A model generated the notes under the pieces. The model searched no databases and had not been told where the DNA came from. It was given only the letters and a program-made list of their open reading frames with translations. The position numbers and the translations under genes are program-made. Shown here one piece after another: positions 8,932-44,997 of a DNA stretch of 64,000 nt (the first letter of the stretch is position 1; every line of letters starts with the position of its first letter). This stretch comes from an uncultured virus (IMG/VR IMGVR_UViG_3300037400_005412) (taxonomy: Duplodnaviria; Heunggongvirae; Uroviricota; Caudoviricetes). The stretch is from IMG/VR virus record IMGVR_UViG_3300037400_005412. The stretch is one strand, 5' to 3'.

Positions 8932-8945
8932 AGAGAAATTATATT

Positions 8946-9215: not shown

Positions 9216-9219
9216 TACT

Positions 9220-10838: not shown

Positions 10839-10971
10839 GAGATTTCGTGGCTAGTCCTTTAGCTCCGAGTTTGCCAAAAAATCGCATTAGGAAATTTTTT
10901 TCCCAAAATAAGCTAATATCATTAATCTATTGAAAACAATTCTCATAATTTTATGAGAGGAGTGAAATATA

Positions 10972-11169: not shown

Positions 11170-11256
11170 TTATAAAAAGTCAATGGAATTATCCATTGAC
11201 TTTTTATTTTTTTTATGATATAATATTTATATATAAAATTATAAAGGAGAACTCTA

Positions 11257-11682: not shown

Positions 11683-11725
11683 AATTATTTAAAGAAATTT
11701 TAATAAATACGTAAAGAGAGAGGAA

Positions 11726-11989
11726 GTGATTTTTATTCTCAAATACGTATTTTTAGGAATAAGTCTTTATATTTTAATTATTCCAATTTTAGAATCACTC
11801 TCCGCCTTAATTTGCCAAGGTATTGAAGTTTTAAAAGGAAAATTAATTTATTAGCAAGCATTAATTCAAGAACAAGTTGATAAAATTAATGTAGAACAAC
11901 AATCATCTAATAACCTAACTTAGGCTATTGGTTTTGCAATACCGGCGGACGAGGAAAACTATGAGGAGGAAATTGATGAAGATTCATAA
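11726..11989 (+). CDS. Membrane-anchored hypothetical protein (code 15)
   Basis: GTG start, N-terminal TM, two TAG, acidic tail. Confidence 0.5.
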
Positions 11990-13232: not shown

Positions 13233-13260
13233 AGAGACTGATTTTATCAGTCTCTTTTTT
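13232..13260 (+). terminator. Intrinsic terminator
   Basis: AAGAGACTGAT/ATCAGTCTCTT followed by a T-tract. Confidence 0.7.
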
Positions 13261-13287
13261 CATTAATAAAGGAAGGAGGAATAAAAA

Positions 13288-15459: not shown

Positions 15460-15785
15460 TTAAAAAAAATAATGGAAAACATATAAAAAATCATACGGAA
15501 TTTTCAAAAGCCTTATTGACCCAAGAGTCAATACTAATTTGGATAAATACATTAGCGATGTTAGTTTTGGCTTTTATGTGTATTTATTAGGGCTATTTTG
15601 GAGAATTGCCCTGGCTTTCGGTAATGGCAGGGTTGCCTTGGGCAGCTTATGCGATTAGTTAGCGAGAATATTATATTAAAGCTAGTAAAGAAAATACAAA
15701 AGATGGTATTAAATTTGAAACAGTAATGGCAGATTATAGAGAAACAACTGATCCAATTCACTTTAATGATTCTGCCTTTGGCTGA
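15456..15785 (+). CDS. Putative holin (2 TM, two TAG)
   Basis: ATGA-coupled to the lysin; two hydrophobic helices. Confidence 0.6.
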
Positions 15786-15961
15786 TAAACTATGCAATGA
15801 CCAAGATAATATTATATTATATATTATCTTGGTTTATTTTTTTAGAATTGACAATTATTTTTTTTTATAATATAATATTTATATATAAAATAAATAATTT
15901 TTATGACATATATATCATAGAATAAAAAAAAATAATTGTCAAGGAATTAGGAGATATATAT

Positions 15962-16408
15962 ATGCGTTATTATTATACAGATGGTTCAGCAACTGAAAAT
16001 GGTACTGAAAATTCTATGGGAGGATTTGGAATCGTTGAAGTTGATGAAAATAATAATATTCTTTGGGAATATCAAGAAAATAATTTAAAATATGAAACAA
16101 ATAATTCTATGGAATTAACAGCTATCTTATATGCTTTAAATCATATAGAAATTGAAGAAGCATCTTTTACGAAACCAATTATTTATAGTGATAGTGCTTA
16201 TTGCGTAAATCTTATAAATGATTGGATGTATAGTTGGGAGCGCAATGGATGGAAGCGCCCTAAAAATCAAGAAGTTAAAAATTTAAATCTTATTAAACAA
16301 ATTTTTGAATTAGCAGATTTAGCACAAATAAAAAAAGTCAAAGGACATTCTGATAATAAATGGAATAATTATGCTGATAAATTAGCAACAGGAGAATATA
16401 AAATATAA
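15962..16408 (+). CDS. rnhA: Ribonuclease HI
   Basis: YTDGS, TNNSMEL, SDSAY, KVKGHS, NNYADKLA. Confidence 0.9.
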   Translation: MRYYYTDGSATENGTENSMGGFGIVEVDENNNILWEYQENNLKYETNNSMELTAILYALNHIEIEEASFTKPIIYSDSAYCVNLINDWMYSWERNGWKRPKNQEVKNLNLIKQIFELADLAQIKKVKGHSDNKWNNYADKLATGEYKI

Positions 16409-16692
16409 TGAGAATTAATTTTTTACCAGTAAATATTTATATTAATCGTAATGAAAAATTTTTTGCTAAAATAGAGTGGTTTTTATATAAACATTTTGGA
16501 TTAAAAAGAACTGTTCCTTGTGGACAAACTGAAAAGAATAAATATTTATGGTGTGCTCAACCAACTGATGAAGAACATTGTTATTATAGCAAAGAAGATA
16601 AAACAGAAGTTAAATGTAAATGTTGTAATCAATTGAAAATAATGAGTAATCAACCAATTGATTTAAAGAAAATTTACGAAGAAGAATTTTAA
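16408..16692 (+). CDS. Hypothetical protein
   Basis: Track ORF coupled to rnhA. Confidence 0.55.
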   Translation: MRINFLPVNIYINRNEKFFAKIEWFLYKHFGLKRTVPCGQTEKNKYLWCAQPTDEEHCYYSKEDKTEVKCKCCNQLKIMSNQPIDLKKIYEEEF

Positions 16693-16755
16693 CTTGACTT
16701 TAATTAAAAAAAATGATATAATATAATATAAAGAAAAAAAATAAGGAGTTTTATA

Positions 16756-17091
16756 ATGCTAAACGAATTATTAAAATGTTGTTTTGGTTGTCCTGTATGT
16801 GGGCGAATACTTTATCGTCCATTAAAAGGATATTGGTGTCCATATTGCGGTGCTGATGTAGAAAAAGGATAGTCAGATGAAATAATTAATTTAAAAAATA
16901 GATTAACTGCTAGAGATGATAATGGAGTTCCTTATTATTGTGGGGAACATACACTTCATTCTTTTACTTATGCATAGGATATGACTATTACTGCAATTGG
17001 AGAGATTCTCGAAAAACTTTGCCAATATGAAGAAATTGAAGTTGAAAATGATAGAATTATTAATGAGTTAGTAGGAGAAAATAGTGAATGA
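16756..17091 (+). CDS. Zn-ribbon hypothetical protein (code 15)
   Basis: CPVC...CPYC; two TAG; SD AAGGAG. Confidence 0.55.
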
Positions 17092-17396
17092 AAAATATTT
17101 TAAATCCTGATTGTAGTGTAGTATATTATTGGTATGATCATTTAGTATTACGAGATAATGGTGATGCTAAAATTATAACAAAAGCTATTAGTAAAGGTGA
17201 CTTTGAAACTTTTTGTATGATTAAAAATAAATATCCTACAAAAAAATATTATAATAAAGAATTTGGTGAATGTGATTTAGTATATTTCCCAAATTATGCT
17301 TCTATTTTTTATAATGATGAAATAATTGGAGAAATTGATATTACAACTGAATTAGGTTTTAGTTTTATTACTGATAGTGAATTTGAATGTGGTTGA
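17088..17396 (+). CDS. Hypothetical protein
   Basis: Track ORF with ATGA overlap. Confidence 0.55.
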   Translation: MKNILNPDCSVVYYWYDHLVLRDNGDAKIITKAISKGDFETFCMIKNKYPTKKYYNKEFGECDLVYFPNYASIFYNDEIIGEIDITTELGFSFITDSEFECG

Positions 17397-17466
17397 TGAA
17401 TTCTGCTTCGGTCAATTAAATAGAAAAATATTACAATAAATGATTTATTAAAAGGAGAGTAAAATA

Positions 17467-19365
17467 TTGGGTAAATTATACACAGAAGATAGCATAGAAT
17501 CGTTAAGCCCACTTGAATTTACAAGACTTAGACCTGGCGTTTATGCTGGTGACACAACATATGCTACTCAATTAGCAATAGAAATTTTTTCAAATGCTGT
17601 TGATGAATTTAGAGCTGGCAATGGTGATAAGATTGATATAACTATTAAAGGTCCAGTAGTTTCAATTAGAGACTATGGTCAAGGATTTATTCCAAATAGT
17701 TTTCGTGATGATGGTAAAACAATCCTTGAGGCAGCATTTAGTGTATTAAATACTTCTGGTAAATATCGTGAAGATGGTACATATGAAGGTACGTCATTAG
17801 GTTCTTTTGGTATTGGATCTAAAATTACTACTTATCTCTCACATTGGTTAAATGTTACTACATTTAGAGATAATGCAGCTGAAGAAATTCATTTTAAAGA
17901 AGGCGTTTTTGATAATCGTATTAGCGCTGATATAAATGAAAGACCATCAGGAACGTTAGTAGAATGGGAACCTAGTGAAGAATTTTTTACTCATCCAGAA
18001 GTAAATGTAAATGAATTAAAAACTCTATTTAAAACAATTTCTGCTTTATGCCCTGGTCTTACTATTAATTTAGATGATAATGGAAATAAAACAACTTATT
18101 TCTCTAAGAATGGTATTAATGATTTAGTGGATGAAGCAGTTGAAGGAAAAGAATTAATTAGAAATCGTTTTGTTATGAATTATCAAAATGATAAAAATAA
18201 AATTGATATGATTATGACATATACTTCTAATTATTCAATGAATTTAATCCCATATGTTAATACTGGTTTAACAGCAAATGGTCCACATATCTCACAAATT
18301 AAATCTCTTTTAACTCGTGAATTTAATAAATTTTTCCGTGATAAAAAATGGTTAAAAGAAAAAGAAGAAAATCTTTCTGGTGAAGATATACAAGAAGGAC
18401 TTTATATCATATTTAATATTACTGCTCCAAATGTAGCATATGATGCTCAAGTAAAAACAAGAGTTACGAAATTAGAAATGACTCCTTTTACTTCGGCAAT
18501 AGCAGAGGAACTTCGCGTTTGGTTTACAGCAAATGAAAAAGATATAAAGATGATCGCTGATAAAGCATTAGGTGCTCGTAAAGCAAGATTAGCAGCTCAA
18601 AAGGCCAGAGAAAATGCTCGCGAAGGACAAAAGAAAAAAGAAAAAGCCTTAAAATTTGACAGTAAGTTAACTGATTGTTATAGCAAAGATAGAAAAAAAT
18701 GTGAAATTTATATTACTGAGGGTGATTCTGCAAGTGGCAATTTAATTCAAGCACGTAATAATGAATTTCAAGCAATTTTACCTGTTCGTGGTAAAATTTT
18801 AAATACACATAAAGCTACTTTAGATAAAATTCAAAAAAATGCTGAAATTATGAATATGATTGATGCATTTGGTTTAGAAGTAGATTTAAAAACTATGAAA
18901 GTAACTTATGATCCGAATAAATTAAGATATGGTAAAATTATTATTATGAGCGATGCCGACGTTGATGGAGCTCATATTAAAAATCTTTTTTATACATTTA
19001 TTTGGAATTTTTGCCCTCAACTTATTGATGATGGATATGTCTATGCTGGTGTCCCACCTCTTTATAGAGTAGTAATGGGTAAAAAATATTATTATCTTAA
19101 AGACGATCCAGCATTAGAAGAATTCCGTAATAAAAATAAAGGTAAAAATTATGAAATTAATCGTTTTAAAGGTCTTGGCGAAATGAATGTTGAAGAGACA
19201 GAAGAAACATTGATTGATCCAGAAGTAAGAATTATTAATCAAGTAACTATTAGTGATGCTGCAAAAGCAACTAAATTATTTGATGATTTAATGGGAACAG
19301 CAGTAATTCCTAGAAAACAATATATTAAAGAGCATAGTAATGAAGCAACTTATAATGCAGAGTGA
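17467..19365 (+). CDS. gyrB: DNA gyrase subunit B
   Basis: LRPGVY, EIFSNAVDE, EGDSA, PVRGKILN, DADVDG, RFKGLGEM. Confidence 0.92.
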   Translation: MGKLYTEDSIESLSPLEFTRLRPGVYAGDTTYATQLAIEIFSNAVDEFRAGNGDKIDITIKGPVVSIRDYGQGFIPNSFRDDGKTILEAAFSVLNTSGKYREDGTYEGTSLGSFGIGSKITTYLSHWLNVTTFRDNAAEEIHFKEGVFDNRISADINERPSGTLVEWEPSEEFFTHPEVNVNELKTLFKTISALCPGLTINLDDNGNKTTYFSKNGINDLVDEAVEGKELIRNRFVMNYQNDKNKIDMIMTYTSNYSMNLIPYVNTGLTANGPHISQIKSLLTREFNKFFRDKKWLKEKEENLSGEDIQEGLYIIFNITAPNVAYDAQVKTRVTKLEMTPFTSAIAEELRVWFTANEKDIKMIADKALGARKARLAAQKARENAREGQKKKEKALKFDSKLTDCYSKDRKKCEIYITEGDSASGNLIQARNNEFQAILPVRGKILNTHKATLDKIQKNAEIMNMIDAFGLEVDLKTMKVTYDPNKLRYGKIIIMSDADVDGAHIKNLFYTFIWNFCPQLIDDGYVYAGVPPLYRVVMGKKYYYLKDDPALEEFRNKNKGKNYEINRFKGLGEMNVEETEETLIDPEVRIINQVTISDAAKATKLFDDLMGTAVIPRKQYIKEHSNEATYNAE

Positions 19366-19376
19366 GGTTAATATAA

Positions 19377-21719
19377 ATGGTAAGTGATATAGTAAAAGAA
19401 TTAGGAACTAATTTTATAGAGTATGCTGTTGCTGTTAATACAGACCGTGCAATTCCAGATGCTAAAAGCGGATTAAAGCCAGTAGCAAAAAGAATTTTGT
19501 ATGATGCTTATATTAGTGGATTTAGTAGTTCTAAAAAATATGTAAAATGTGCTCTTATGGTCGGTGACACAATGGGTCGTTTTCATCCACATGGGGATAG
19601 TTCAATTTACTCAGCTTTATGCCGTTTAGCTCAAGATTGGACTATGCGTTATCCATTAATTGATTTTCATGGAAATCTTGGCAATAGAGATGGTAGTGGC
19701 CCAGCAGCTTATCGTTATACAGAAGCAAGATTACACAAATTAACAGAAGATGGTATGTTATTTGGAATGAAAAAAGGAGTAGTAGATTACATTCCTAACT
19801 ATTCTGAAAATGAAAATGAGCCAGTAACATTACCTTCAATTTTTCCCAATCTGTTATGTAATCCTAATACGGGAATTGGTGTTGCAATGGCTTGCAATTG
19901 GGCTCCTCATAATTTAAATGAAGTGGCACAAGCAATTAATGATTATATAGATGGAAAAGAACCTATGCTTCCTGGGCCAGATTTTCCTACTGGTGGAATT
20001 ATTATTAATAAAAATGATATTCCAACTATTATGCGGACAGGTCATGGTAGTGTAAAAATCCGTGGTAAATATCATATGGAAGGAAATAATATTGTATTTA
20101 CAGAACTTCCTTATGCTGTTGTTACTGAGAATCTTATGAAAACTATTGGTGAATTATGCGATAGTGGAGATATTCAGGGAATTACAGAAATTCGTAATGA
20201 AAGTAACAGAAAAAGTGGTTTTCGTCTTGTATGTGAATGCGCAAAAGATGCTAATATTACGAAAATAATTCAATTACTTTTTCAAAAAACTGATTTACAA
20301 TCTTCATTTTCATATAATCAAGTAGCTCTTATTGATAAAACACCAACTGAATTAAATCTAAAAGATTGTTGTAAAATTTATATTGAGCATAATACTGAAT
20401 GTATTAAAAGAGAAGCTGAATATGATATTAATAAAGCAAAAGATAGATTAAATATTATTGAAGGTTTATTAAAAGCTCTTGAAGATATTGATAATGTAAT
20501 TGCTTTAATTAAAGCGTCTGAAAGTAGTGCAAAAGCTCGTGAATCATTAATGAAGAAATATGGTTTTAATGAAGAACAAGCTAAGGCAATTACTGATATG
20601 AAATTAGGTAAATTAGCTGGATTAGAAAGAATTGAAATTGAAAATGAAAAAGCTGAATTACTTACTACAATTGATGAATTAAATGCTATTCTTAATAATC
20701 TTATTGGAGAATTAAGAAAACGTCTTGATGTTATCGTTAAAAAATATGGTGATATCCGTCGTACCGAATTAGCGCAAATTGATACCCCAAAGACTAAAGA
20801 AGAAAAAGAAATTGCTGAAATCCCACCAGAAAAATGTGTAGTTGTAATGACTGAAAATGGTAGTTTAAAGCGTATTCCTGCTACTTCATTTAAGACACAG
20901 CGCAGGGGTGGAAAAGGCGTTAAAACACAAGAAGATATAACATCTGCGGTAATTCGTACTAATACAGTTGATAGTCTTATGATTTTTTCCAATAAAGGAA
21001 AAATGTATCGTTTGGTAGTAAATAATATTCCAGAAGGAACTAATACTTCAAAAGGAACTCCAGTAAGAGCTTTAGTTGAAATGGAAACTGGTGAAGATGT
21101 TTCTACTATTTATTCTATTTATCGTGATACAGACGCTAAATATGTTTTATTTGTTACTAAAAATGGTCTTGTAAAAAAGACTGCTTTGAGCGAGTATATA
21201 GGCACAAAGAAATCTAAAGGTATCGGTGCTATTAATATTAAAGATGGCGATGAACTAGCTGTTGTTACATTAGTAAAAGATGAACCACTTCTTATTGTCA
21301 GTAAAAATGGTTATGTGATTAGGTTTAATAGTGCTGATATTAGTACTACTGGTAGACTTACGGCTGGCGTTAAAGGTATTAATTTAAGTGAAGATGATTA
21401 TGTTGTTGCCGCTTTACCAATTCGTCATAGTGAAGATGATTTAGCGGTCTTTTCAAGTAAAGGATATGGTAAAAAAGTTAAGTTAGATGATATCCCAACA
21501 CAAAAACGAGGCGGGAAAGGTATTATTATTTATAAACCAAATGAAATATATGGAAATGCTAGCTGCGGTCAATTGATTAGTGATGAAGATATGGTGTTAT
21601 TAATTGGTAATAAAAATTCCGTATGCTTATCAGCAAAAGACATCTCAGAGATGGGAAGAGCTGCATATGGAAATATAATGTTAAAAAATAATTTTATCTT
21701 AGATGTGAGTAAAGTATAA
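19377..21719 (+). CDS. gyrA: DNA gyrase subunit A
   Basis: GLKPVAKR, HPHGD, AAYRYTE active site, GyrA-box QRRGGKG, pinwheel repeats. Confidence 0.92.
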   Translation: MVSDIVKELGTNFIEYAVAVNTDRAIPDAKSGLKPVAKRILYDAYISGFSSSKKYVKCALMVGDTMGRFHPHGDSSIYSALCRLAQDWTMRYPLIDFHGNLGNRDGSGPAAYRYTEARLHKLTEDGMLFGMKKGVVDYIPNYSENENEPVTLPSIFPNLLCNPNTGIGVAMACNWAPHNLNEVAQAINDYIDGKEPMLPGPDFPTGGIIINKNDIPTIMRTGHGSVKIRGKYHMEGNNIVFTELPYAVVTENLMKTIGELCDSGDIQGITEIRNESNRKSGFRLVCECAKDANITKIIQLLFQKTDLQSSFSYNQVALIDKTPTELNLKDCCKIYIEHNTECIKREAEYDINKAKDRLNIIEGLLKALEDIDNVIALIKASESSAKARESLMKKYGFNEEQAKAITDMKLGKLAGLERIEIENEKAELLTTIDELNAILNNLIGELRKRLDVIVKKYGDIRRTELAQIDTPKTKEEKEIAEIPPEKCVVVMTENGSLKRIPATSFKTQRRGGKGVKTQEDITSAVIRTNTVDSLMIFSNKGKMYRLVVNNIPEGTNTSKGTPVRALVEMETGEDVSTIYSIYRDTDAKYVLFVTKNGLVKKTALSEYIGTKKSKGIGAINIKDGDELAVVTLVKDEPLLIVSKNGYVIRFNSADISTTGRLTAGVKGINLSEDDYVVAALPIRHSEDDLAVFSSKGYGKKVKLDDIPTQKRGGKGIIIYKPNEIYGNASCGQLISDEDMVLLIGNKNSVCLSAKDISEMGRAAYGNIMLKNNFILDVSKV

Positions 21720-21854
21720 TGGAAGTTAAAGAATTTAAATTAGTGGAAATGAGTTCCTATAGTCCTGATTAGGGCTATAGGAAGTGGTATGAATTTCAAC
21801 CACAATATAGTGATAATGGAATAATTTATATTAATTTGGAGAATATAAATAAAA

Positions 21855-23810
21855 ATGAACAAACTTGATGAAATGCAAGAACTAATTGATAAATTAAATT
21901 ATTATATTAAAATGTATGATGAAGGAAATCCAGTAATTTCTGATAAAGAATATGATGATTTATATTTTCAATTAGAAAAATTAGAAGAAGAGTCCGGCGT
22001 TTGTATGGCAAATTCTCCAACTTGCCATGTAGATTACTTTTCATTAAATGAATTAAAAAAAGTAAAACATTCTCACCCTATGCTCTCATTAGACAAAACT
22101 AAAACCATTCAAGATATTTTAAATTTTAAAAGCGATAAAGATGTTATTTCTATGCTTAAAATGGATGGTTTAACTTGTTCTATTCGTTATGAGCAAGGAG
22201 TATTAATAAGTGCCGAAACTCGTGGAAATGGTGAGATAGGAGAAGATATCACTCATAATATTATCACAGTTAAAGGCGTTCCAATAGAAATTCCTTTTAA
22301 AGGCACTTTAGTCGTTGATGGTGAAGTTATTTGTACTTATAAAGATTTTGAATTATTTAGTGATAAATTTGCTAATCCACGTAATTTTGCGGCAGGCAGC
22401 ATTAGATTATTAAATAATGGAGAATGTGCTAATAGGCATTTAACTTTTATTGTTTGGGATGTTATCCAAGGATTTGAGGATTGTAAAACTTTAACTGAGA
22501 AATTATATAAAATAGATGATTTAGGATTTAATTTTGTCCCTCATTTACAATGGCCTGAAAATAAAGTGGATGAAGAGACTTTTAATCATATCTCTACTTT
22601 ATTAACTAATTGGGCGCAAAAGGATGATTTTCAATATCCATATGACGGATTAGTATTTAAATATAATAATTGTAATTATTATTCTTCTCTTGGAGAAACT
22701 GGACATCATCCAAAAGGTGGATTAGCATTTAAGTTTTATGATGAAGAATATGAAACATATTTAAAAGATATTGAATGGTCTATGGGGAAAACAGGACAAA
22801 TTACACCTGTAGCAATCTTTGAAGAAGTTGATACAGGAGATTCTATAATTTCTCGTGCTTCTGTTCATAATTTAAATATTATGAAACAAATATTGGGAGA
22901 ACGTCCTTATATTGGTCAAAAAATTTGGGTATGTAAACAAAATGAAATTATTCCACAAATTGTAAAAGCTGAAAAAGAAAATTATATTCAAGATTTAATA
23001 CTTGATATTCCAAAAAAATGTCCTTGTTGTGGGGCAGATACTTTTATTAAAGATGATTTTCTTTATTGTAGTAATAAAGAATGTGAAGGAAAATTAATTA
23101 ATAAATTAGATCATTTTGTAGGGAAAAAAGGTCTTGATATTAAAGGTTTATCTAAAGCAACTCTTCAAAAATTAATTAATTGGGAATGGATTAATTCTAT
23201 TTCTGATATTTTTGAGTTATACCAGCATCGTAATGAATGGTATAAAAAAGATGGGTTTGGAGTTAAATCTGTTGATAATATTCTTGAAGCAATAGAAAAT
23301 AGTAAAGAATGTGAATTATGGCAATTTATTTCTAGTTTAAGTATTCCATTGATTGGTAGTACATATGCTAAAGAAATTGCTAGAAAATGTTTTGATTGGT
23401 CATAGTTTGTAGAGCGTATAAATAATGATAGTAGCTTTATGGAATGGAATGGTTTTGGATTTGAAATGGATAAGGCTTTACATTCTTTCGACTATACTGA
23501 AGCAAATAATTTAGTTTCTAATATTTTATCTTTAAAAAATTCTTTATGGAGAAATCCAGAAGATGAAATTAGAGATAATAATTTAAATGGAAAAAACTTG
23601 TGTGTAACTGGAAAATTAAAGATATTTAAAAATAGAGATGAACTAGTTGCGGCGGTCGAAGCTGCGGGCGGCAAAGTTACTAGTGCCGTTAGCAGTAAAA
23701 CTTCATATCTAGTTACTAATGATACTGAATCTGGTTCAAGTAAAAATATTAAAGCAAAGCAGCTTAATATACCTATTATTACAGAATCTCAATTGTATGA
23801 TATGCTTTGA
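21855..23810 (+). CDS. ligA: NAD-dependent DNA ligase with BRCT domain (one TAG at 23403)
   Basis: KMDG, TRGNG, NPRNFAAGS, Zn finger; in-frame BRCT lies after the TAG. Confidence 0.92.
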
Positions 23811-24061: not shown

Positions 24062-24207
24062 CAATTGAAAAATTTTTTTGTATAATATTTACACAAATTA
24101 AAAAATATTTAAGGGGAACAGTGGAGTAATTAACCAATGAGATAATGCTTTGCCCTTATCAAAGCAAGCCTTTTATATAATTCCGAATAAGGGAAGGAAT
24201 GATAAAT

Positions 24208-24951
24208 ATGCCAAAAGCCTATGATTTAACAAATTAGCGTTTTGGTAAATTAGTAGCACAATATAAATGTAATTATAAAAAAGGAAATAAATATCCTTGG
24301 CATTGTATTTGTGATTGCGGCAATGAAGTAGATGTAAGAACACAAGATTTGACTAGCGGTAAAACGACATCTTGTGGTTGCTTATAGAAAGAAATTGTTC
24401 GTTAGATTGGTAAAAAAACAAGTCAAATAAATTTTAAACATGAGTATAAAGATATTACTAATCAACGCTTTGGTTTTTTAGTTGCTTTAAAGAGACTTGA
24501 AAATAAAGGATTGGGTAAGTGGCTATGCCAATGTGATTGTGGAAATATGACTATAGTTCGTATTAATGATTTAACTTCAGGAAATACAACTTCTTGTGGT
24601 TGTATTCGTTCAAAAGGACAATTAAAAATTAGTCAATTATTAAATTAGTATAATATCCCATTTGAAACTGAAAAAAGTTTTGAAACAAGTTATTATAAGA
24701 ATACTAAAAATTTTTTCCGTTTTGATTTTTATGTCAATAATGAATATATTATTGAATATGATGGTATTCAACATTTTAAAGAAAATAATTTTTTTCCAAT
24801 ATCTTTAAGAGAACAACAAATGAGAGATTAGGAAAAAAATGAATGGTGTAAAAATAATAATATACCTTTAATTAGAATTCCATATAAATAGTTTGATAAA
24901 ATAACAATTCAAGATTTATTATTAGTAACAAGTGGTTTTATTATAAAATAA
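24208..24951 (+). CDS. Free-standing putative homing endonuclease (WxCxCDCG Zn repeats plus Vsr/DUF559-like nuclease)
   Basis: DLTNQRFGKL...WHCICDCG...TTSCGC twice; RFDFY...IEYDGIQH...LIRIPY. Confidence 0.75.
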
Positions 24952-24992
24952 ATAAAATATTAAATATTACAAATAAAGGAGATTATATTATT

Positions 24993-25259
24993 ATGGCTAT
25001 GAAGGAAAATTCAAAATCTGTATTAAATTATTTAAAGAGTGTTAATGGTTCTGACGTTACTGCTGCTGATGTAGCTGATGCTCTCGGTCTTGAGAAGCGC
25101 TAGGTAGACGGTATCTTTACAAGTGCTATTCAGCGCAAGGGTCTTGGTGTTCGTGTTCCTGCTGAAATTGAGCTTGATGATGGAACTCATCGCGCCATCA
25201 AATTCCTAAAGCTTACTGATGCTGGTATGGCATTTGATCCTGACGCAGTTGAAGAGTAA
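24993..25259 (+). CDS. Small winged-helix DNA-binding protein
   Basis: VTAADVADALGLEKRQVDGIFTSAIQRKGLG; strong SD; one TAG. Confidence 0.6.
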
Positions 25260-25358
25260 TTTTTGGACAAACTGATTAAGTTTCTTAATAACAAAAAATA
25301 AAATAAGTGAGAGAAAAAACTCTCACTTATTTTAATATAAAGGAGTAACTTAATCTTA

Positions 25359-26186
25359 ATGTACAATTTTTTAAATTTTGAATTAACAAAAGAAAAAATA
25401 AAAGAAATTAATTAGTTAGAATTTTGTGATAAAAAATCTAGAATAGATTTAACTGGTTAGATTTTCCATAGATTAACAGTGCTTGGGCGTGGACCTGATT
25501 ATATTAGTCCATCAGGTAAAAGAAGCGCTTAGTGGTGGTGTATCTGTAGTTGTCCAGAGCATAAAATTATTTTAGTAAGGTCTAATAATTTAAAATCTGG
25601 TAACACAAAGTCATGTGGTTGTTGGAAATCAGAACAATCTAGAAAACATATCATGGAAGTAGGACATTCTATGGCGCATGATATTAGTAATCAAGTTTTT
25701 GGTGAATTAACGGCGCTTGAACCTACTAATGGAAGAAGAAATAATAGCGTAATTTGGAAATGTCGTTGTTCTTGTGGTAAAATACATTATGTAAGTTTAC
25801 ATGACTTAAATAATCATAGAATAGAATCTTGTGGGCATACTTATGAGTCAAAAGGAATTAGAAAAATTAAAAAAATTCTTAATGAAAATAATATTCCATA
25901 TACTACAGAAAAATGTTTTTCAACTTGTAAATTTCCAGATTCTAATGCTTCAGCACGATTTGATTTTTATATTAATGATTCTTTTTTATTAGAATATGAC
26001 GGTGAACAACATTATTATGAACAAGATTTAAATTTTTTCAAAGATTCTTTATTACAAAGACAATAGCATGATTTATATAAAAATCAATGGTGTAAAGAAA
26101 ATAATATTTCATTAAAAAGAATTCCTTATTGGGAATTAAATAATATAACTCTTGAAACCATAATGGGTGATAAATACTTAATATGA
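25359..26186 (+). CDS. Second free-standing putative homing endonuclease, paralogous to 24208..24951
   Basis: DLTGQIFHRL...WWCICSC, WKCRCSCG, RFDFY...LEYDGEQH...RIPYW. Confidence 0.75.
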
Positions 26187-38253: not shown

Positions 38254-39538
38254 ATGGAAACTATTATATTAAATAATAAACAAGAGGAGGCGTTGAAATT
38301 AGCTGTAGCCAGATATAATCTTGGTATGCCATATACCGTAATATCTGGCTACGCTTAACGCTGGCTCTGGAAAAAGTACTCTTGTTAAATTTATAATTGC
38401 AGCATTAAATATTCCACCAGAGCAAGTAGCATATGTAGCTTATACAGGTAAAGCAGCTAATGTACTAAAAAATAAAGGTTGCCCAAATGCTACTACTGCG
38501 CATAAATTATTATATTATGCTAAAAGAACTAAAGAAGGATTTTTTATTTTTGAGCCTAAAGAAAGATTAGATGCTGATTATAAATTAATAGTTGTAGATG
38601 AAGTATCTATGTTGCCAGACGAAATGTGGTACTAGCTATTAAGCCATGGAGTTTATGTGCTGGCCTGCGGAGATCCAGGTTAGCTAGAACCAGTAAAAGC
38701 ATCTGCTGCGCCAGTTCTTGAGAAACCTCATATCTTCCTCGATGAAATTATGCGATAGGCACAAGAGAGTGCTATTATTAGGTTATCAATGCATATCCGT
38801 GAGGGAAAAGATTTTAGAACTTTTCCAACAGTAAGTGGTGAGGTGCGCATTATTCCTTCTAAATCTTTATTTTATGATGAAGATTCTGCTCTTCTTCAAG
38901 CTAGCTAGATTATTTGTGGGACTAATGAAGAGCGCAAACGTATTAATAATAGAGTTAGACAGCTAATTGGTCGAGGAGAATTGCCAGAAATTGGCGATAA
39001 AATAATTGGACTTGATAACCATTGGGATTGTATTAGTAAACAAGGTAATGCTTTAACCAATGGAGCTATTGGAACAATTAAAAATTTTAATTTAAAAGAA
39101 TAGCGATATCCTAATAAGACTGATTCACGATTTAAGTATTTTCCAGATTCTACTTTATTAATGTACACAGATTTTGAAACCGATGATGGGGATTACTTTC
39201 CAGAGTGTATAATGCCACTTGATTATAATTGTATTATTACAGGAGATCCAACTTTAAATCCAAAACAAGAAGCTAGTCTTGCTAATTATTAGAAAAATTT
39301 ATTAGCTCAAGCAAAAAGGAGAGATAATTTTCCTTTTGAAAGATATTGGAAAGATTTGCCATATCATTTTAATTATGCATATGCAATTACTTGCTGGAAA
39401 GCGCAAGGTAGTTAGTATCCATATGTATTAGGTTACGACTGCTCTTGGTTAAAACGGAAAAATACTGATGAATATAAAAAATACCTTTATACATTGGTGA
39501 CTCGTGCTGAATAGGCAGTAATTTTAGTGGGAGATTAA
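38254..39538 (+). CDS. RecD/Dda-like SF1B helicase; frame interrupted by a 7-nt insert at 38356-38362
   Basis: ISGYA[TAACGCT]GSGKST, AYTGKAA, VVDEVSM, GDPGQL, MRQA, YAITCWKAQGS, YTLVTRA. Confidence 0.85.
38305..38362 (+). promoter_or_regulatory. Candidate translational bypass/recoding element (stem-loop, take-off codon, TAA, landing codon)
   Basis: GTAGCCAGATAT/ATATCTGGCTAC 12-bp stem followed by GCT TAA C GCT. Confidence 0.65.
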
Positions 39539-39721: not shown

Positions 39722-39892
39722 ATGGAAATTGAAATTACTCAAGAAATATTAGATGAAGTAAATATGTTTTTAAACAATGGATTAGTTTAGCTTTTAAATG
39801 ATACTGGAATGAGTTTTTCAGCATTAACATTTATAGCACAAAGTATAGTATCTGCGGTTGATAAAGTGCAAGAAGAACTTGACAAAAATTAA
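39722..39892 (+). CDS. Hypothetical protein
   Basis: Open under code 15. Confidence 0.45.
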
Positions 39893-39930
39893 GATTTATG
39901 ATATAATATATATGATAAATTATAAAGAGG

Positions 39931-42900
39931 GTGATTAATATAAATACTCAGATTAATACATTTTTTGATTGTCACGCTCATACTGAGTATTCTTAAATTT
40001 AATATAAGATTAATTGACTGTATCAATCATCCAAAAGACTTAATTAATAGAGCGATTGAAATAGGGCTTAGTGGATGTAGTATAACCGACCACGAAGCTC
40101 TATGCTCGCATATGATTGTTAATAAGTATGCTAAAGAGATAAAAGAAAAATATCCTGACTTTACAATCGCATTAGGTAATGAAATTTATCTTACAGATAC
40201 GAGAGATAAAGGACAAAAATATTATCACTTTATTTTATTAGCAAAGGATAGATTAGGGTATAAAGGTCTTTGTGAATTAAGTTCAACAGCTTGGTATAAT
40301 GTTTATGTAGATAGACGTCTTGAAAGAGTTCCAACTTTAAAAAGTGAACTTAAAGAGATTATGAAAAAATATAAAGGTCATATTATTGCGACGACCGCTT
40401 GTATGGGTGGAGAGCTATCTACGAATTTATATGGTTTGGCATTAGCAAGAAAAACTCAAGATAAAGAATATGAAAAATTATATTATGATAAAGCAGTTGA
40501 GTTTATAAATTTTTGTATTGATGTTTTTGGAAAAGAAGATTTTTATATTGAATGCGCCCCAAGCATAAAGTCAGATCAAGTAATTGTTAATAAACAATTA
40601 TTAAATGTTGCTCATGCTATGGGCTTAAAAATGGTAATAGGAACAGATGCTCATTATCTTAAAAAAGAAGATAGATATGTACATAAATCATATTTAAACT
40701 CAAAACAAGAAGAACGTGAAGTTGATGATTTTTATGAATATGCTTATATGCAATCTCCACAGGAAGTTAGAGAACATTTAAGTGCTTCAATGAGTGATAG
40801 AGATATTGATTGGATATTTGAAAATTCATTAGAAGTTAAAAATAAAATAGATTTTTATAGTCTTGAAAAACACCAACATATTCCAGAAGTAAAAGTAAAA
40901 AATTATCCAAAACAAGGATATTTAGAGTTTTTTGGCGGTTCGTTTGATGGCTATAATGATCAATTAGATGAATTTTATAACGAGTGTCCAATATTAACAG
41001 AACTTTTTAATAGTGATAATGTCCAAGAAAGATATTGGGTAAACCAATGTTTTGAAGCATTAATGGACAAAGGAATTGGTTTAAAACAAGAATATGTTAA
41101 AAGATTAGAAGAAGAGGCACGAGTAAAAAGAATTATTGGTGAAAAACTTCAAACTTGTATGTTCGCATATCCAAATACTCTTCAGCATTATATTGATTTA
41201 TTTTGGAGATGCGGTAGTACGGTTGGAGCAGGACGTGGTTCAGCATGTTCTGGTTTAAATCATTATCTTTTAGGAGTAACTCAACTTGATCCTATACAAT
41301 GGGACTTGCCCTGGTGGAGATATTTGAACGATGAGCGTGTTGAACTCGGTAGTCTATGGTTGATATTGCCGAGTTGTAAAAAAAGAATGTGAACCCTGCT
41401 AAGGGGTGTCAATTAATAAAATTGGCTAACGGTATTAGTGAAATAAGGCATAATGCACGAATCAACTAACTAAGAGAGCCTATGTCCTGAAATATGGATA
41501 GATTGGGGATACCGTGCTTTTTAACTATAATAAATAAAAATCCAGGTCAAAGTCTGCTAATTATATTATCTTAAATTTCATGTTATATAGAAAGAGAGAT
41601 GATATAATGAAAAGTTATTATATTTATTTAACTACTAATTTAATAAATAATAAAAAATATATAGGAATGCATCATGGCGAATTAAATGATGATTACCTAG
41701 GTAGTGGAAATAATATTGTCAATGCAATTAAGAAATATGGAAAAGAAAATTTTAAAAGAATAATTTTACATATTTCTAAAGATTATGAAGATAATTGTTA
41801 TTGGGAAAAATATTATATAGAAAAATATAATGCAGTAGCAGATAGAAATTTCTATAATATTCACGAAGGCGGAGCAGGTGGCAATACTATTGCTGGTTGG
41901 TCTAAAGAAAGATTAGAATAGTATAAAAAAGAAAAAAGTATAATGTCGTCTGGTAAAAATAATCCAAGATATGGGATCCATTTAACCGAAGAAACTAAAT
42001 AGAAAATTCGTGAAAATAGAAATACTGATTATATGAAAACTGAATAGTATAGAAAAAATATGTCTATGGCAGTTAGTGGTGAAAAAAATGGAATGTATGG
42101 GAAAAAACATACAGAAGAGGCTAAACAAAAAATGTCATAGCATAAAAAAGGAAAAAAATTAAATGCTGAAAATGGTAATGCAAAGAAAATAATTGCTTAT
42201 AAAGATGTCAAACATACTGAAAAAGTTAAAGAATTTGGATGTATTAAAGAAGCATTAATTTGGTTAGGAACAAATAGTAAAGATTATTCAGGTATTTCAA
42301 AAAGGATGAAAGAAAATAAACCATATAAAGGTTTTTATTGGGTTAAAGAGTGTAGAGACTAATATAAAGGGATAGAGATAAGCACTATCCTGTAGCGCAT
42401 TCGCATGATAATTGAAGTTATTGCACGCAGTAAATTATTATGTAAGAGATAGTCCATTAAAGGATATTGACTTAGACTTAGCGCCAAGTAAGCTTCCAAA
42501 AATTTTTGAAGAAATTCGTAAAGAACGTGGAGAATTTGGTATTGTCCAAGTTTGTACCTTTGGTACAGAAGCAACTAAGTCAGCAGTTTTAACCGCTTGT
42601 CGTGGTTATAGAAGTGAAGAATATCCAGATGGAATAGATGTTGATGATGCTCAATATATTTCATCATTAGTTCCACAAGAGCGAGGATTTTTATGGGATC
42701 TTCATGATATGATTGAAGGGAATCCTGATAAAGGTAGATTGCCGCAAAAACAATTCATAAATACAGTAAATCAATATCCAGGTCTTTTAGATATTATGAA
42801 AGGTATTGAGGGATTGGTATCTCGTAGAGGTATTCATGCTTCTGGTGTTATTTTATTTGATGAAGATATATTTAGTGAAGCAGCTATTATGAAAGCCAGA

Positions 42901-44997
42901 AATGGAAATTTAACAACTCAATGGGATCTTCATGACCAAGAAGCTGCTGGTAGTGTTAAATATGATTTTCTTTTAACTGCTGTTCAAGATATTATTATTG
43001 AAACAATTGATTTGCTTCAAGCAGATGAAGTTATAGACCCCACTTTATCTTTAAGAGAAGTATATGATAAATATCTTCATCCAAATGTTCTTCCGCAAAA
43101 TGATGATAAAATGTGGGACGCTTTGGCAAAAGGTAGTGTATTAGGAATATTTCAATTTGAAGGTTCTGTTGGAGCTCAAGCAGCAAAAAAGATTAAACCA
43201 CATAATCCATTAGAAATGGCTGATGCGAATGGATTAATGAGATTAATGGCAAGTGAACCTGGGGCTGAAATGCCACTTGATAAATATGTTCGTTATAAAA
43301 ATAATATTAATCAATGGTATATGGAAATGGATAGATGCGGTTTAACAAAAGAAGAACAAACAGCTATTGAGCCACATTTTAAATCTTCATATGGTGTCCC
43401 TCCAAGCCAAGAGCAGTTAATGCGAATGTTAATGGATGAAAATATCTGCGGTTTTACATTAGCAGAAGCAAATGCAGCTCGTAAAATTGTTGGTAAAAAA
43501 TAGATGTCTAAAATTCCAGGATTAAAACAAAAAGTTTTAGAATCAGCTAAATCTCCAAAATTAGGTGAATATATTTGGAAATATGGGGCTGGTCCATAGA
43601 TGGGCTACTCATTCAGTATTATTCATGCATTAGCTTATTCGTTTATTGGAATGCAAACATTATATTTAGGTGTATATTACCCTATATATTGGAATACGGC
43701 TTATTTAATTGTTAATAGCGGAGCATTGGGTGGCGATGAAGATGATGATGGAGATAAACAAGATGGAACAGATTATAAAAAAGTTGCGAAAGCTATTGGA
43801 TAGATTAGAGCTGCTGGAATTAAAATAAGTTTAGCAGATATTAATCGTTCAGAGTTTGGCTTTGTCCCAGATCCAGAGAATAATCAAATTCTTTTTGGTA
43901 TGAAGGGTATGTTAAATGTTGGCGATGATATAATTGAAGAAATTATAGCACATCGTCCATATATTTCTCCACGAGATTTTATAAATAAAGTAAAACCAAA
44001 TAAACAAGTTATGATTTCTTTAATTAAAGGTGGCGCTTTTGATAATTTAATTGATAGAAAAGAATGTATGGCTTGGTATTTATGGGAAAATTGTGATAAG
44101 AAAAAACGAATTACTTTATAGAATATGGCTGGATTAATGAAATATAAATTAGTGCCAGAAGACACCGATGAAAAGGTAATGGCGCGAAGGATATATGAAT
44201 TTAATAGATATTTGAAAGCAATTACAATTCCAGCGAATAAATTAAAACCATATTATGTATTGGATGAACGCGCCATGAATTTTTTAATAAATATTGAAAA
44301 AGAAGATTTAATTTGTCAAAATGGAAATATATATTGTTTATTAAAAGCAGATTGGGAAAAAATTTATCAATCTTATATGGATGTCTTTCGCCAATGGATA
44401 GCCGAAAATCATGATGAATTACTTAATAATTTAAATAAGTTAATTTTTATGGATGAATGGAATAAATATGCGAAAGGAACTATATCTGCTTGGGAAATGG
44501 AGTCTTTGTGTTTTTATTATCACGAGCATGAATTAGCGCATTTAAATAATTATAAATATGGATTTGTCGATTTTAATAAATTACCAGTTGAACCTAAAAT
44601 AGATAAAACATTTACTAAAGGTGGGCGCACTATTAATATGTATAAATTATATAAGATATGCGGCACTTGTATAGCTAAAAATAAAAATAAAAGTACAGTT
44701 TCTTTATTAACCACTACTGGAGTTGTAGAAGTTAAGTTCCGTCGTGAATATTTTGCTTTATTTGATAAACGAATTTCTGCTAAAGGTGAAGATGGGAAAA
44801 AACATATAGTTGAAAAATCATGGTTTGATCGCGGTAGTATGATTATTGTACAAGGAATGCGTTTAGATGATATGTTTGTATCAAAAAAATATGCTTCTTC
44901 TGGAGGGCATCAACTCTATAAAATTGATGAAGTTATTGATGATGAAATTAAAATAAGAACAACTCGCGCTCAAGGCGATGAAGAAGAGGAAGAATAA
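39931..44997 (+). CDS. dnaE: DNA polymerase III alpha (family C); 7-nt insert at 39994-40000 and group I intron at 41351-42462
   Basis: DCHAHTEYS[TAAATTT]NIRLID, ITDHE, TDAHY, GRGSA, ELG|DIDLD, GIHASGV, KYDFL, GIFQFE, GYSFSIIHA; start codon approximate. Confidence 0.9.
39943..40000 (+). promoter_or_regulatory. Candidate translational bypass/recoding element
   Basis: AATACTCAG/CTGAGTATT 9-bp stem followed by TCT TAA A TTT. Confidence 0.6.
41351..42462 (+). ncRNA. Group I intron in dnaE, just before the catalytic DIDLD
   Basis: Exon ends GGT, intron ends in G; R TGTAGAGACTA ~42351, S AAGAGATAGTCC ~42444; P1 AACTCGGT/GCCGAGTT. Confidence 0.88.
41607..42362 (+). CDS. Intron-encoded GIY-YIG homing endonuclease with NUMOD3 repeats
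   Basis: YIYLTTNLINNKKYIG, YLGSG, NPRYGIHLTEETKQKI, NGMYGKKHTEEAKQKMS. Confidence 0.85.

What the first reader, a model, noticed from the sequence alone, without database searches (positions are those of the whole stretch)
39931..40020. DnaE PHP motif split by TCT-TAA-A-TTT with 5' stem; the track ORF misses the true N-terminus
Seen: frame 1 encodes FFDCHAHTEYS then TAA; after TAAATTT the other frame continues NIRLIDCINHP. AATACTCAG (39943-39951) pairs with CTGAGTATT (39983-39991), and TCTTA/TAAGA can enclose the gap. Established: the HxH motif is part of the PHP metal site. Inference: tRNA-Ser could land on TTT via G-U wobble. The rest of the gene is intact and intron-containing, so it is probably functional.
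Basis: partly seen in the sequence, partly recalled or inferred. Interest (0 to 1): 0.88.

Follow-up and report, generated by a model that had tools for sequence, protein, structure and literature searches.

The report
Seven-base ribosome hop in phage dnaE
The DNA polymerase gene of this uncultured cattle-gut phage is broken 21 codons in by seven real bases that begin with a stop codon, and comparison with many related phages suggests that ribosomes skip them, a very rare way of reading a gene.

Summary
Observation confirmed. GTG 39931 opens VININTQINTFFDCHAHTEYS, then TAA (39994-96). The rest of DnaE (NIRLIDCINHP...) resumes at AAT 40001 in the +1 frame. Intact orthologues read HTEYSNIRLID, so the window carries 7 extra bases (TAAATTT). 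They are in contigs of two DNA studies and one RNA library, without indels.

It is not a lone defect. I found 20 unique sequence contexts in about 10 lineages with [Ser codon][stop][N][NNT]AAY at this spot. The two flanking codons are identical in 11 of 20 (TCT/TCT, once TCC/TCC). The window has TCT/TTT.

All carry a 6-10 bp hairpin whose 3' arm abuts the take-off codon, with compensatory changes.

Sister sites have in-frame 6- and 9-base gaps. The helicase gene in this window has the same design (GCT TAA C GCT, 12-bp hairpin, 38305-38362), with 5-base versions in relatives. Only a ribosomal hop fits all these gap lengths.

Other lineages carry an RF2-like CTT TGA C +1 site five codons downstream.

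Homing-endonuclease genes sit just upstream in 6/21 hop, 22/38 +1 and 1/20 intact contexts, as in T4 gene 60/MobA. The window has lost its copy.

Nothing is tested at the bench. This scan noted similar dnaE gaps before on other DNA. Five literature searches found no paper on it.

The parts
39879..39907 (+). sigma-70-like promoter TTGACA-17-TATAAT with TG before the -10 hexamer, just upstream of dnaE
   Evidence: 12 of 12 consensus matches. Read pile-ups and loose ends at 39879/39913 suggest a repeated promoter module.
39931..39993 (+). first coding segment of dnaE (21 codons, GTG start, ...FFDCHAHTEYS) holding the PHP HxH motif; the exact start codon is uncertain
   Evidence: Relatives have ATG at the same place (L001, L060). 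The segment differs from L001 by 2 synonymous changes and by I>M and C>V, the latter a residue other orthologues also carry. No usual SD spacing before GTG.
39943..39951 (+). 5' arm of the hairpin (AATACTCAG)
39983..39991 (+). 3' arm of the hairpin (CTGAGTATT); its last base is the first base of the take-off codon
   Evidence: Positions -8..0 are paired in 16-20 of 20 unique contexts, with several pair types.
39991..39993 (+). take-off codon TCT (Ser)
   Evidence: TCT in 19 and TCC in 1 of 20 unique gapped contexts, against TCT in 2 of 24 intact orthologues.
39994..40000 (+). 7-nt coding gap: TAA stop (39994-96), spacer A (39997), landing codon TTT (39998-40000)
   Evidence: Absent from intact orthologues. 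Present in independent contigs.
40001..41350 (+). rest of dnaE part 1, from resume codon AAT (NIRLIDC...); the end is approximate (+/-3 nt)
   Evidence: tblastn of the uninterrupted L012 DnaE. Pfam PHP and DNA_pol3_alpha.
41351..42462 (+). intervening sequence in dnaE with a GIY-YIG/NUMOD3 endonuclease ORF (41580-42362, TAG read as Gln)
   Evidence: No Rfam intron match.
42463..44997 (+). dnaE part 2 (palm, fingers, HhH), with 4 in-frame TAG codons
   Evidence: Both TAG positions that could be aligned match Gln in homologues.
38254..38362 (+). second site of the same design, in the RecD-like helicase gene: ATG 38254, hairpin GTAGCCAGATAT (38305-16) / ATATCTGGCTAC (38341-52), take-off GCT 38353-55, TAA 38356-58, C 38359, landing GCT 38360-62, then GGC TCT GGA AAA AGT (Walker A)

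Best explanation
The 7 bases TAAATTT (39994-40000) are a minimal programmed translational bypass ('hop') site.

Proposed steps (inferred, not shown):
- Ribosomes start at or near GTG 39931 and make VININTQINTFFDCHAHTEYS.
- With peptidyl-tRNA-Ser on UCU (39991-93) and the slow-to-decode UAA in the A site, the anticodon lets go.
- The mRNA moves 7 nt and the tRNA re-pairs with UUU (39998-40000). This codon is near-cognate: most relatives have UCU there.
- Decoding resumes at AAU 40001.
- The product is one DnaE chain reading ...HTEYSNIRLID..., with a whole PHP metal-binding motif.

A hairpin whose 3' arm ends on the take-off codon belongs to the signal. Its role is inferred only. It may act like the gene 60 5' stem-loop (pairing of exiting mRNA), or it may control initiation and ribosome spacing.

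Proposed origin: the gap is the immunity scar of a free-standing homing-endonuclease cassette that targets the conserved 5' end of dnaE, as with T4 MobA and gene 60. This window has lost the nuclease gene and keeps only its last codons (YKEGD*).
For: 1. Orthologue junction. Intact relatives read HTEYSNIRL(I/L)D with no residue between S and N.

2. Recurrence. The layout [Ser codon][TAA/TAG/TGA][any base][NNT]AAY is found in 20 unique contexts. The codon pairs are TCT/TCT 10, TCC/TCC 1, TCT/TCC 1, TCT/TTT 7 and TCT/GCT 1. By their N-terminal peptides I count about 10 lineages. The general search pattern left the take-off codon free, yet all 17 true metagenome hits had TCT or TCC. Intact orthologues use TCA 8, AGT 8, AGC 3, TCG 3, TCT 2.

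3. Gap lengths of all three frames.
- dnaE, in frame: TCT TAA ACT (L148), TCT TAG TCT (L154), TCT TAG GTGTCA (L152).
- Helicase Walker A, 7-nt gaps: GCT TAA C GCT in the window; GCT/GCC, GCT/GCG, GCC/GCG and GCC/ACA in relatives.
- Helicase Walker A, 5-nt gaps: GCT or GCC followed by TGACT.
- In all, 8 of 15 helicase contexts are gapped.
- A +1 frameshift cannot serve the 5-, 6- and 9-nt gaps. A hop serves all.

4. Hairpin. Best 5' helix score averages 8.7 in 17 gapped contexts against 5.9 in 21 intact ones (Mann-Whitney p=2e-7, rows not independent). At least 8 different arm pairs occur, e.g. AATACTCAG/CTGAGTATT, ATAATGAGT/ACTCATTAT, GGTAACAAGT/ACTTGTTACT, GGTAATGGGT/ACCCATTATT, AGTGCG/CGCACT. 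The helicase site has a perfect 12-bp hairpin in the same position.

5. The insert is real. It is in independent DNA contigs and in an RNA-library contig.

6. Independent initiation is not general. The downstream frame has no ATG/GTG/TTG before the junction in 4 of 21 hop contexts and 10 of 34 +1 contexts.

7. Endonuclease link. HNH-type or DUF2726-type endonuclease ORFs end on the dnaE start in 6/21 hop, 22/38 +1-site and 1/20 intact contexts. The three states are interspersed on the DnaE tree; starred branches force at least 9 changes for the hop state.

8. Literature. The T4 gene 60/MobA cassette has the same logic, including elements that lost the nuclease but kept the bypass (passages of bioRxiv 10.1101/2022.08.31.505936). 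Short matched-codon hops over a stop were made synthetically and were expected in nature (passages of PMC5009743).
Against: - No protein or ribosome data exist.
- In the window the landing codon is TTT, not TCT. It keeps only 2 of 3 positions (G-U in the middle). A random NNT codon would do as well 44% of the time.
- One dnaE context lands on GCT. Helicase relatives land on ACT or ACA.
- For a 7-nt gap alone, a +1 shift fits equally well.
- Single-sequence folding energies are unremarkable: z = -0.3 to -2.3 for 13 sequences, and the helix is missing from the MFE of 2 of them.
- With the take-off codon in the P site, the 3' arm would lie inside the ribosome. How the hairpin could help is therefore unclear. 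In gene 60 the 5' stem-loop lies 9 nt upstream.
- No conserved hairpin encloses the stop.
- The search patterns fixed the HxH motif, the N-x-R-L-x-D motif and the 7-nt length. Those features are therefore constant by construction.
- Many contexts are related, so counts are not independent events.
- The window has no adjacent nuclease gene, and 15 of 21 hop contexts show none within the ~400 nt held.
- The start codon is uncertain: GTG directly follows AAGAGG.
Confidence: 0.62

Rival explanations
1. +1 ribosomal frameshift at UCU_UAA_A, in the antizyme or Ty3 style with no re-pairing needed. The ribosome reads UCU, then AAA UUU AAU, giving ...HTEYS-KF-NIR... with two extra residues in the PHP motif.
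For: The net frame change is +1. A stop codon in the A site is the classic +1 stimulator. Sister lineages use a true RF2-type +1 site, CTT TGA C/T, five codons downstream: 48 of 66 IMG/VR pattern hits, 34 unique contexts. The window's landing codon does not match its take-off codon. The two +1-frame codons can never be stops.
Against: It cannot explain four things. (1) The second extra codon equals the take-off codon in 11 of 20 contexts, including TCC/TCC. (2) The gap is 7 nt when 1 or 4 would do. (3) The same hairpin-plus-stop design occurs with in-frame 6- and 9-nt gaps. (4) It also occurs with 5-nt gaps in the helicase. UCU to CUU re-pairing is poor. No orthologue has residues between S and N.
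Confidence: 0.22
2. There is no recoding. DnaE starts downstream (TTG 39965 or the internal Met of MIVNKYAKE) and works without HxH. Or the 21-residue peptide and the rest are made separately and then associate.
For: Gene callers pick these starts (P0001 and 12 further clusters start at MIVNK). TTG 39965 exists. Homing endonucleases are known to split genes into working pieces (passages).
Against: The upstream frame is kept open and conserved across divergent lineages while synonymous sites vary. TTG 39965 is a by-product of the TTT GAT (F-D) codons and has no SD. In 4/21 and 10/34 contexts the downstream frame has no start codon before the junction. A 21-residue peptide is unlikely to supply metal ligands in trans (inference).
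Confidence: 0.06
3. Pseudogene, assembly error, or removal of the 7 nt at the RNA or DNA level (editing, slippage, a subpopulation without the insert).
For: Contigs drop rare variants, so a minor insert-free form cannot be excluded. Only one RNA-library contig covers the site, and DNA can be present in RNA libraries.
Against: The same insert is in contigs from two DNA studies and one RNA library with no indel, and in many other assemblies. The rest of the gene is intact and conserved (80-90% identity to L012 over 1,290 residues). The sequence is not a homopolymer run. The stop codon, take-off codon and hairpin are conserved.
Confidence: 0.04

Closest known systems
Phage T4 gene 60 translational bypass with the MobA homing-endonuclease cassette (Huang 1988 and Bonocora 2011 as cited in bioRxiv 10.1101/2022.08.31.505936; passages seen; abstract and passages of bioRxiv 10.1101/2024.12.09.627546)
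   Same: The take-off codon is followed directly by a stop. There is a landing codon just 5' of the resume codon, and a 5' stem-loop. The element supplies an N-terminal extension. An endonuclease ORF overlaps the start of the downstream gene. Copies exist that lost the nuclease but kept the gap. The target is a replication gene.
   Different: The gap is 5-9 nt instead of 50 (20 in one clade). No A-site take-off hairpin is found. The 5' hairpin abuts the take-off codon instead of lying 9 nt upstream. The nascent chain is only ~14-21 residues, so a gene 60-type peptide signal is unlikely. The landing codon is sometimes only near-cognate. The nucleases differ (HNH and DUF2726-like) and so do the genes (dnaE, helicase).
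Synthetic 'stop-hops' in E. coli: matched codons flanking a stop, 9 nt encoding one residue (Weiss et al. 1987, as described in PMC5009743; passages seen)
   Same: Matched codons flank a stop, with P-site tRNA re-pairing while a stop sits in the A site. L154 (TCT TAG TCT) has exactly this layout.
   Different: These sites are natural and conserved, carry a hairpin, and mostly have one extra base so that the frame changes. The 2016 review's passage says no natural in-frame stop hop was known.
Streptomyces phage Hau3 terminase: 10-nt inserts after a rare UUA codon (PMC10732093; abstract and passages seen)
   Same: A short gap in an essential phage gene. A 5' stem-loop is proposed as a signal. 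A junction peptide was shown by mass spectrometry in E. coli.
   Different: The trigger there is a rare sense codon tied to host development, not a stop. No nuclease link is mentioned ('homing' occurs 0 times in that text).
RF2 (prfB) +1 frameshift site CUU UGA C (recalled knowledge, not from a call)
   Same: Sister lineages of this dnaE carry CTT TGA C/T, which restores ...RLL|D... exactly.
   Different: The window does not have this site. By eye, no SD-like element lies 3 nt upstream in the phage sites. There is no autoregulatory logic with a release factor.

Membership tests
Programmed translational bypassing (gene 60 type) | Coding gap that starts with a stop codon directly after the take-off codon | tested here: met
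   TCT TAA at 39991-39996. All 20 unique contexts have TAA, TAG or TGA, but the search pattern required T-R-R there.
Programmed translational bypassing (gene 60 type) | Landing codon matching the take-off codon, directly 5' of the resume codon | tested here: inconclusive
   Window: TCT versus TTT, 2 of 3 positions. Relatives: identical in 11 of 20 contexts and synonymous in 1 more. The helicase site in the window is GCT/GCT.
Programmed translational bypassing (gene 60 type) | 5' stem-loop upstream of the take-off codon | tested here: met
   9-bp helix 39943-51/39983-91. Compensatory arm pairs occur in other lineages. The spacing differs from gene 60, and single-sequence z-scores are weak.
Programmed translational bypassing (gene 60 type) | Take-off stem-loop that occupies the A site | tested here: not met
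   No conserved helix encloses the stop. TCTTA/TAAGA is found in only 3 of 16 contexts.
Programmed translational bypassing (gene 60 type) | Nascent-peptide signal, and a single chain made across the gap | not testable with these tools
   Needs mass spectrometry or reporter assays.
Homing-endonuclease plus bypass mobile cassette (MobA type) | Endonuclease gene directly upstream, overlapping the start of the interrupted gene | tested here: not met
   Window: helicase ends at 39538, followed by two small ORFs without Pfam hits and a promoter. Only the codons YKEGD* of the L002-type ORF remain. Relatives: 6/21 hop, 22/38 +1 and 1/20 intact contexts have such an ORF.
RF2-type +1 programmed frameshift | Shift site CUU UGA C, where tRNA-Leu re-pairs on UUU | tested here: not met
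   The window has UCU UAA A. The motif is present in 34 unique sister contexts.
DNA polymerase III alpha (DnaE, family C) | PHP, pol3 alpha NTPase/palm, finger and HhH domains in order | tested here: met
   Pfam PF02811, PF07733, PF17657, PF14579. 80-90% identity to the uninterrupted L012 gene.
Group I intron with homing endonuclease | Match to a group I intron RNA model | tested here: not met
   Rfam E-value search of 41250-42600 gave 0 matches at E<=0.01. A GIY-YIG/NUMOD3 ORF is present. Enterococcus phage EF1 annotates an HNH ORF marked 'Phage intron' directly after its 470-residue DnaE CDS.
Genetic code 15 phage (TAG = Gln) | In-frame TAG at positions where homologues have Gln | tested here: met
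   Both alignable TAGs of dnaE part 2 align with Q (KKQM, GPQMG). TAG=Q opens long ORFs. The relative Phass-1 is filed under 'Caudoviricetes code 15 clade'.

The most novel reading that the evidence does not exclude
These phages carry a family of minimal ribosome-hop cassettes. Each has a hairpin that ends on a take-off codon, then a stop codon, 0-6 further bases and a matched landing codon. Free-standing homing endonucleases plant them in the most conserved motifs of replication genes: the dnaE PHP HxH motif and the helicase Walker A motif. There they serve as immunity scars. They coexist with an RF2-type +1 site that does the same job. They would be the long-predicted natural short 'stop-hops'. 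With dozens of natural variants, they would form a ready-made mutational series for working out how ribosomes take off and land.
Probability: 0.55. Interest if true: 0.9.

Novelty: new variant of a known kind. Interest (0 to 1): 0.82.

Why it matters
Few cases of natural translational bypassing are described: T4 gene 60 and its homologues, yeast mitochondrial inserts, and a candidate in a Streptomyces phage. Short hops over a stop between matched codons were made in the laboratory in 1987. They were expected in nature, but the 2016 review I read in passages says no natural in-frame case was known.

This dnaE site has many natural variants. They use three different stops, four spacer bases, gaps of 5-9 nt, and matched and near-matched landing codons, and their hairpins covary. 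Together they give a compact system of under 80 nt that can be tested directly.

The work also shows three practical things. Gene callers truncate the only replicative polymerase of these phages. Homing endonucleases can leave frame-breaking scars that translation repairs. A second gene in the same genome uses the same trick.

Tried and rejected
- Code 4 (TGA=W) does not open the ORFs; TAG=Q does.
- No near-identical DNA in GenBank phages. Cultured relatives are under 40% identical at protein level. Phass-1 and EF1 have their dnaE annotated as an ordinary CDS from its start; I did not read their 5' ends.
- No whole genome is held for this window, so tRNA and release-factor genes of the phage could not be searched. 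There is no tRNA in the window.
- The MAFFT alignment of the 20 contexts (A1) did not keep the 5' arms in register. Pair counts were therefore made by script, with one register per sequence, which leans towards pairing.
- Single-sequence folding energies are not unusual.
- Rfam gives no intron model match.
- A window-wide scan for 'open frame, stop, other frame open, strong 5' helix' gave 23 sites (19 on +, 4 on -). Only the dnaE and helicase sites have protein homology on both sides, so the scan is not specific in this AT-rich DNA.
- DNA for the intact P0008-type genes, which keep the INTQ extension, was not found in IMG/VR. Whether the hairpin survives loss of the gap is therefore open. Intact L006 keeps a similar helix.
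- Helices upstream of the +1-site class are present in many contexts but not all (by my reckoning, mean score about 6.8). I draw no conclusion from them.
- Five literature searches found no paper on recoding in phage dnaE. Subscription journals are not covered.
Full report
THE SITE

The window is phage-like DNA of about 29% G+C. Contigs of bovine-gut sequencing runs hold it. It reads TAG as a sense codon. TAG=Q opens long ORFs where table 11 and table 4 do not. Both TAG codons of dnaE that could be aligned fall on Gln in homologues.

The dnaE gene lies at 39931-44997. The frame opened by GTG 39931 reads VININTQINTFFDCHAHTEYS and ends at TAA 39994-96. The +1 frame carries the rest, with homology starting at AAT 40001, NIRLIDCINHP.... 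Pfam PHP matches the mechanical ORF only from profile position 10. So the HxH metal-binding start of the domain sits in the upstream frame.

IS IT REAL?

Yes.
- A contig of run X1 covers 39797-40030 without a difference.
- A contig of X2, from another study, spans 39786-40382 with 8 substitutions and no gap.
- A contig of the RNA library X9 covers 39921-40030 with 4 substitutions and no gap.
- No indel is listed.

Contigs can hide rare variants, and an RNA library may hold DNA. So this bounds RNA-level or DNA-level removal but does not exclude it.

WHAT ORTHOLOGUES SAY

Of 120 listed homologous protein clusters, most begin M..TFFD(C/V)HAHTEYSNIRL(I/L)D. The window therefore has exactly 7 extra bases between the Ser and Asn codons.

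Some clusters show frame-shifted N-termini of the same kind: P0003, P0059, P0090/95, P0078 and P0082/91/96/107. Thirteen clusters, the window's own P0001 among them, start at an internal Met (MIVNK).

DNA of relatives confirms this (read). Of the 29 loci whose 5' end was read (30 fetched; L027 lacks it), 24 are intact. Four carry a 7-nt gap at the same spot:
- L002 and L004: TCT TAA A TTT
- L001: TCT TAG T GCT
- L009: TCT TAG G TCT

One, L013, has a single extra T that makes TTA CTT TGA C.

THE FAMILY OF 7-NT GAPS

I ran pattern scans of IMG/VR and of JGI metagenomes. The general pattern left the take-off codon free.
- One search gave 10 loci: the 9 plus 1 chance hit.
- One search gave 26 loci: 17 true dnaE and 9 chance hits, which I dropped.

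After removing duplicates there are 20 unique contexts, the window included:

| Take-off / landing | Contexts | Detail |
|---|---|---|
| TCT / TCT | 10 | with TAG G, TAA A, TAA C, TGA A, TAG C, TAG T |
| TCC / TCC | 1 | L063 |
| TCT / TCC | 1 | L052 |
| TCT / TTT | 7 | window clade, plus the separate L058 lineage |
| TCT / GCT | 1 | L001 |

All three stop codons and all four spacer bases occur. By their N-terminal peptides I count about 10 lineages. Flanking synonymous sites differ among them (CAC ACG CAC, CAC ACC CAT, CAT ACT CAT) while the two Ser codons stay. Intact orthologues use TCA 8, AGT 8, AGC 3, TCG 3 and TCT 2 at this Ser.

Caveat: the patterns fixed HxH, N-x-R-L-x-D, a T-R-R triplet and the 7-nt length. 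Those features are constant by construction.

OTHER GAP LENGTHS

A scan with a variable gap after TCT TAR gave 10 loci: 5 already-known contigs, 2 chance hits and 3 new dnaE sites. All 3 new sites are in frame:
- TCT TAA ACT AAT (L148)
- TCT TAG TCT AAT (L154)
- TCT TAG GTGTCA AAT (L152)

By eye, each has a helix ending next to TCT.

The RecD-like helicase gene of this same window has the same design at its Walker A motif...V I S G Y A, then GCT TAA C GCT GGC TCT GGA AAA AGT. A perfect 12-bp hairpin, GTAGCCAGATAT/ATATCTGGCTAC, ends on the take-off codon.

Of 15 helicase contexts in the fetched loci, 8 are gapped:
- 7-nt gaps: GCT/GCT, GCT/GCC, GCT/GCG, GCC/GCG, GCC/ACA
- 5-nt gaps (three contexts): GCT or GCC followed by TGACT

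Seven are intact, and the one I checked by eye (L005) has no complementary arms.

Gaps of 5, 6, 7 and 9 nt restore the orthologous protein only if the whole gap is skipped. A +1 shift cannot do that. This is my main reason to prefer a hop.

THE HAIRPIN

In 17 gapped contexts the best helix has its 3' arm ending 0-3 nt before the take-off codon, its 5' arm 40-54 nt upstream, and a loop of 21-40 nt. The mean score is 8.7. In 21 intact contexts it is 5.9 (Mann-Whitney p=2e-7; the rows are related, so this is a rough measure).

The arm sequences differ between lineages and stay complementary. Positions -8 to 0 are paired in 16-20 of 20 contexts, with two to three pair types at several positions. 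The register was fitted per sequence.

The 5' arm lies in the first codons or over the start codon. In some lineages the SD region can also pair with the UUCUUA of the take-off site.

Points against:
- Folding energies of single sequences are ordinary (z = -0.3 to -2.3).
- The helix is absent from the MFE of 2 of 13 sequences.
- The intact L006 has a similar helix.

A SECOND SOLUTION IN SISTER LINEAGES

A scan for ...N-x-R-L-CTT TGA Y... found 66 IMG/VR loci. Of these, 48 are dnaE, in 34 unique contexts and many lineages. The upstream frame ends ...SN(I/L/V)RLL*, and the +1 frame goes on D(S/C)IN.... CTT TGA C is the shift site of bacterial RF2, a fact I recall rather than took from a call. 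This shows that ribosomal recoding at a stop is what keeps these genes working.

LINK TO HOMING ENDONUCLEASES

Earlier notes of this scan on other genomes pointed to nuclease genes beside such gaps, so I tested it here.

In L001 and L013, an HNH-motif ORF of about 220 residues ends on the dnaE start. In L002 and L004, a 307-residue ORF with a DUF2726-like C-terminus does the same.

| dnaE state | Contexts with such an ORF within 120 nt | Further-off hits |
|---|---|---|
| hop | 6 of 21 | L053 |
| +1 site | 22 of 38 | L084 |
| intact | 1 of 20 | L021, L024 |

(tblastn.)

Where no such ORF is found, the upstream neighbour, where Pfam names it, is an ordinary gene: helicase, RecJ or a methylase.

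The window has no such ORF next to dnaE. It has two small ORFs, then a 12/12 consensus promoter at 39879-39907. Only the last codons (YKEGD*) of the L002-type ORF remain. Homologues of that ORF lie elsewhere in the window, at about 24205-26165.

On a tree of 115 columns the three states are interspersed. Starred branches force at least 9 changes for the hop state. The tree is short, and many forks are open.

This matches the T4 MobA/gene 60 cassette. There the gap protects the carrier from its own nuclease, the element adds an N-terminal extension, and some copies have lost the nuclease (passages).

MECHANISM

Shown:
- the gap and its conservation;
- the matched codons;
- the covarying hairpin;
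- the nuclease link in relatives.

Inferred:
- peptidyl-tRNA-Ser leaves UCU while UAA waits in the A site;
- the mRNA slips 7 nt;
- the tRNA re-pairs (in the window on UUU, with G-U in the middle position);
- AAU is read next.

The hairpin's role is open. With the take-off codon in the P site, its 3' arm should be inside the ribosome. So it may act only as the mRNA emerges, as proposed for gene 60. Or it may limit initiation and so space the ribosomes.

The four TAG codons in dnaE part 2 mean that full-length DnaE also needs amber suppression.

COMPARISON AND NOVELTY

The kind is known: programmed bypassing, and a nuclease-plus-bypass cassette.

Four things are new.
- The gap is minimal, 5-9 nt.
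- Matched codons flank a stop. The 2016 review (passages) says such hops were made synthetically and expected in nature, and that no natural in-frame stop hop was known.
- The hairpin abuts the take-off codon.
- The genes hit are dnaE and a helicase.

The Hau3 terminase case (10-nt gaps after UUA) is the nearest short natural candidate. Five full-text searches found nothing on dnaE recoding. This scan has noted similar dnaE gaps on other DNA.

VERDICT

This is a real, conserved recoding site. Most likely it is a 7-nt ribosomal hop (0.62). A +1 shift adding Lys-Phe is the main rival (0.22). It is untested at the bench.

Noticed in passing
window 38254-38365: The RecD-like helicase gene is broken at its Walker A motif by GCT TAA C GCT. 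A perfect 12-bp hairpin (38305-16 / 38341-52) ends on the take-off codon. 8 of 15 helicase contexts in related loci carry 7-nt or 5-nt versions.
   Followed up: partly
L013 and L076-L141 (IMG/VR): 48 of 66 pattern hits are phage dnaE genes with an RF2-like CTT TGA C/T +1 site after ...SNxRLL, five codons downstream of the window's gap. 22 of 38 unique contexts have an HNH-type ORF ending on the dnaE start.
   Followed up: partly
L154, L148, L152 (positions 401-439 of each): In-frame gaps at the same dnaE codon: TCT TAG TCT, TCT TAA ACT and TCT TAG GTGTCA. The first has the layout of the synthetic 'stop-hop'. Where TAG is read as Gln it could instead be two extra residues.
   Followed up: no
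window 41351-42462: A ~1.1-kb intervening sequence splits dnaE just before the DIDLD motif. It holds a GIY-YIG/NUMOD3 ORF (41580-42362) with 4 TAG codons. Rfam finds no intron model, so intron versus gene-in-pieces is not settled.
   Followed up: partly
window 7971-23405 versus the rest: TAG is read as Gln (code 15). Most ORFs between about 8 and 23 kb contain no TAG (13288-15459 has 22), while most others have many. dnaE part 2 itself has 4.
   Followed up: partly
window 39879-39907: A perfect TTGACA-17-TATAAT promoter with TG. Contig depth jumps here (to ~380 in X2) with loose ends on both sides, as for a promoter module repeated in many phage genomes.
   Followed up: no
window 24205-24921 and 25380-26165: Two stretches similar to the L002-type (DUF2726-like) endonuclease ORF that sits upstream of dnaE in relatives.
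   Followed up: no
L011 about 2950-2960: An intact dnaE relative has TAG as its third codon (ATG GTA TAG ACA...). Amber suppression would be needed from the very start of the gene.
   Followed up: no
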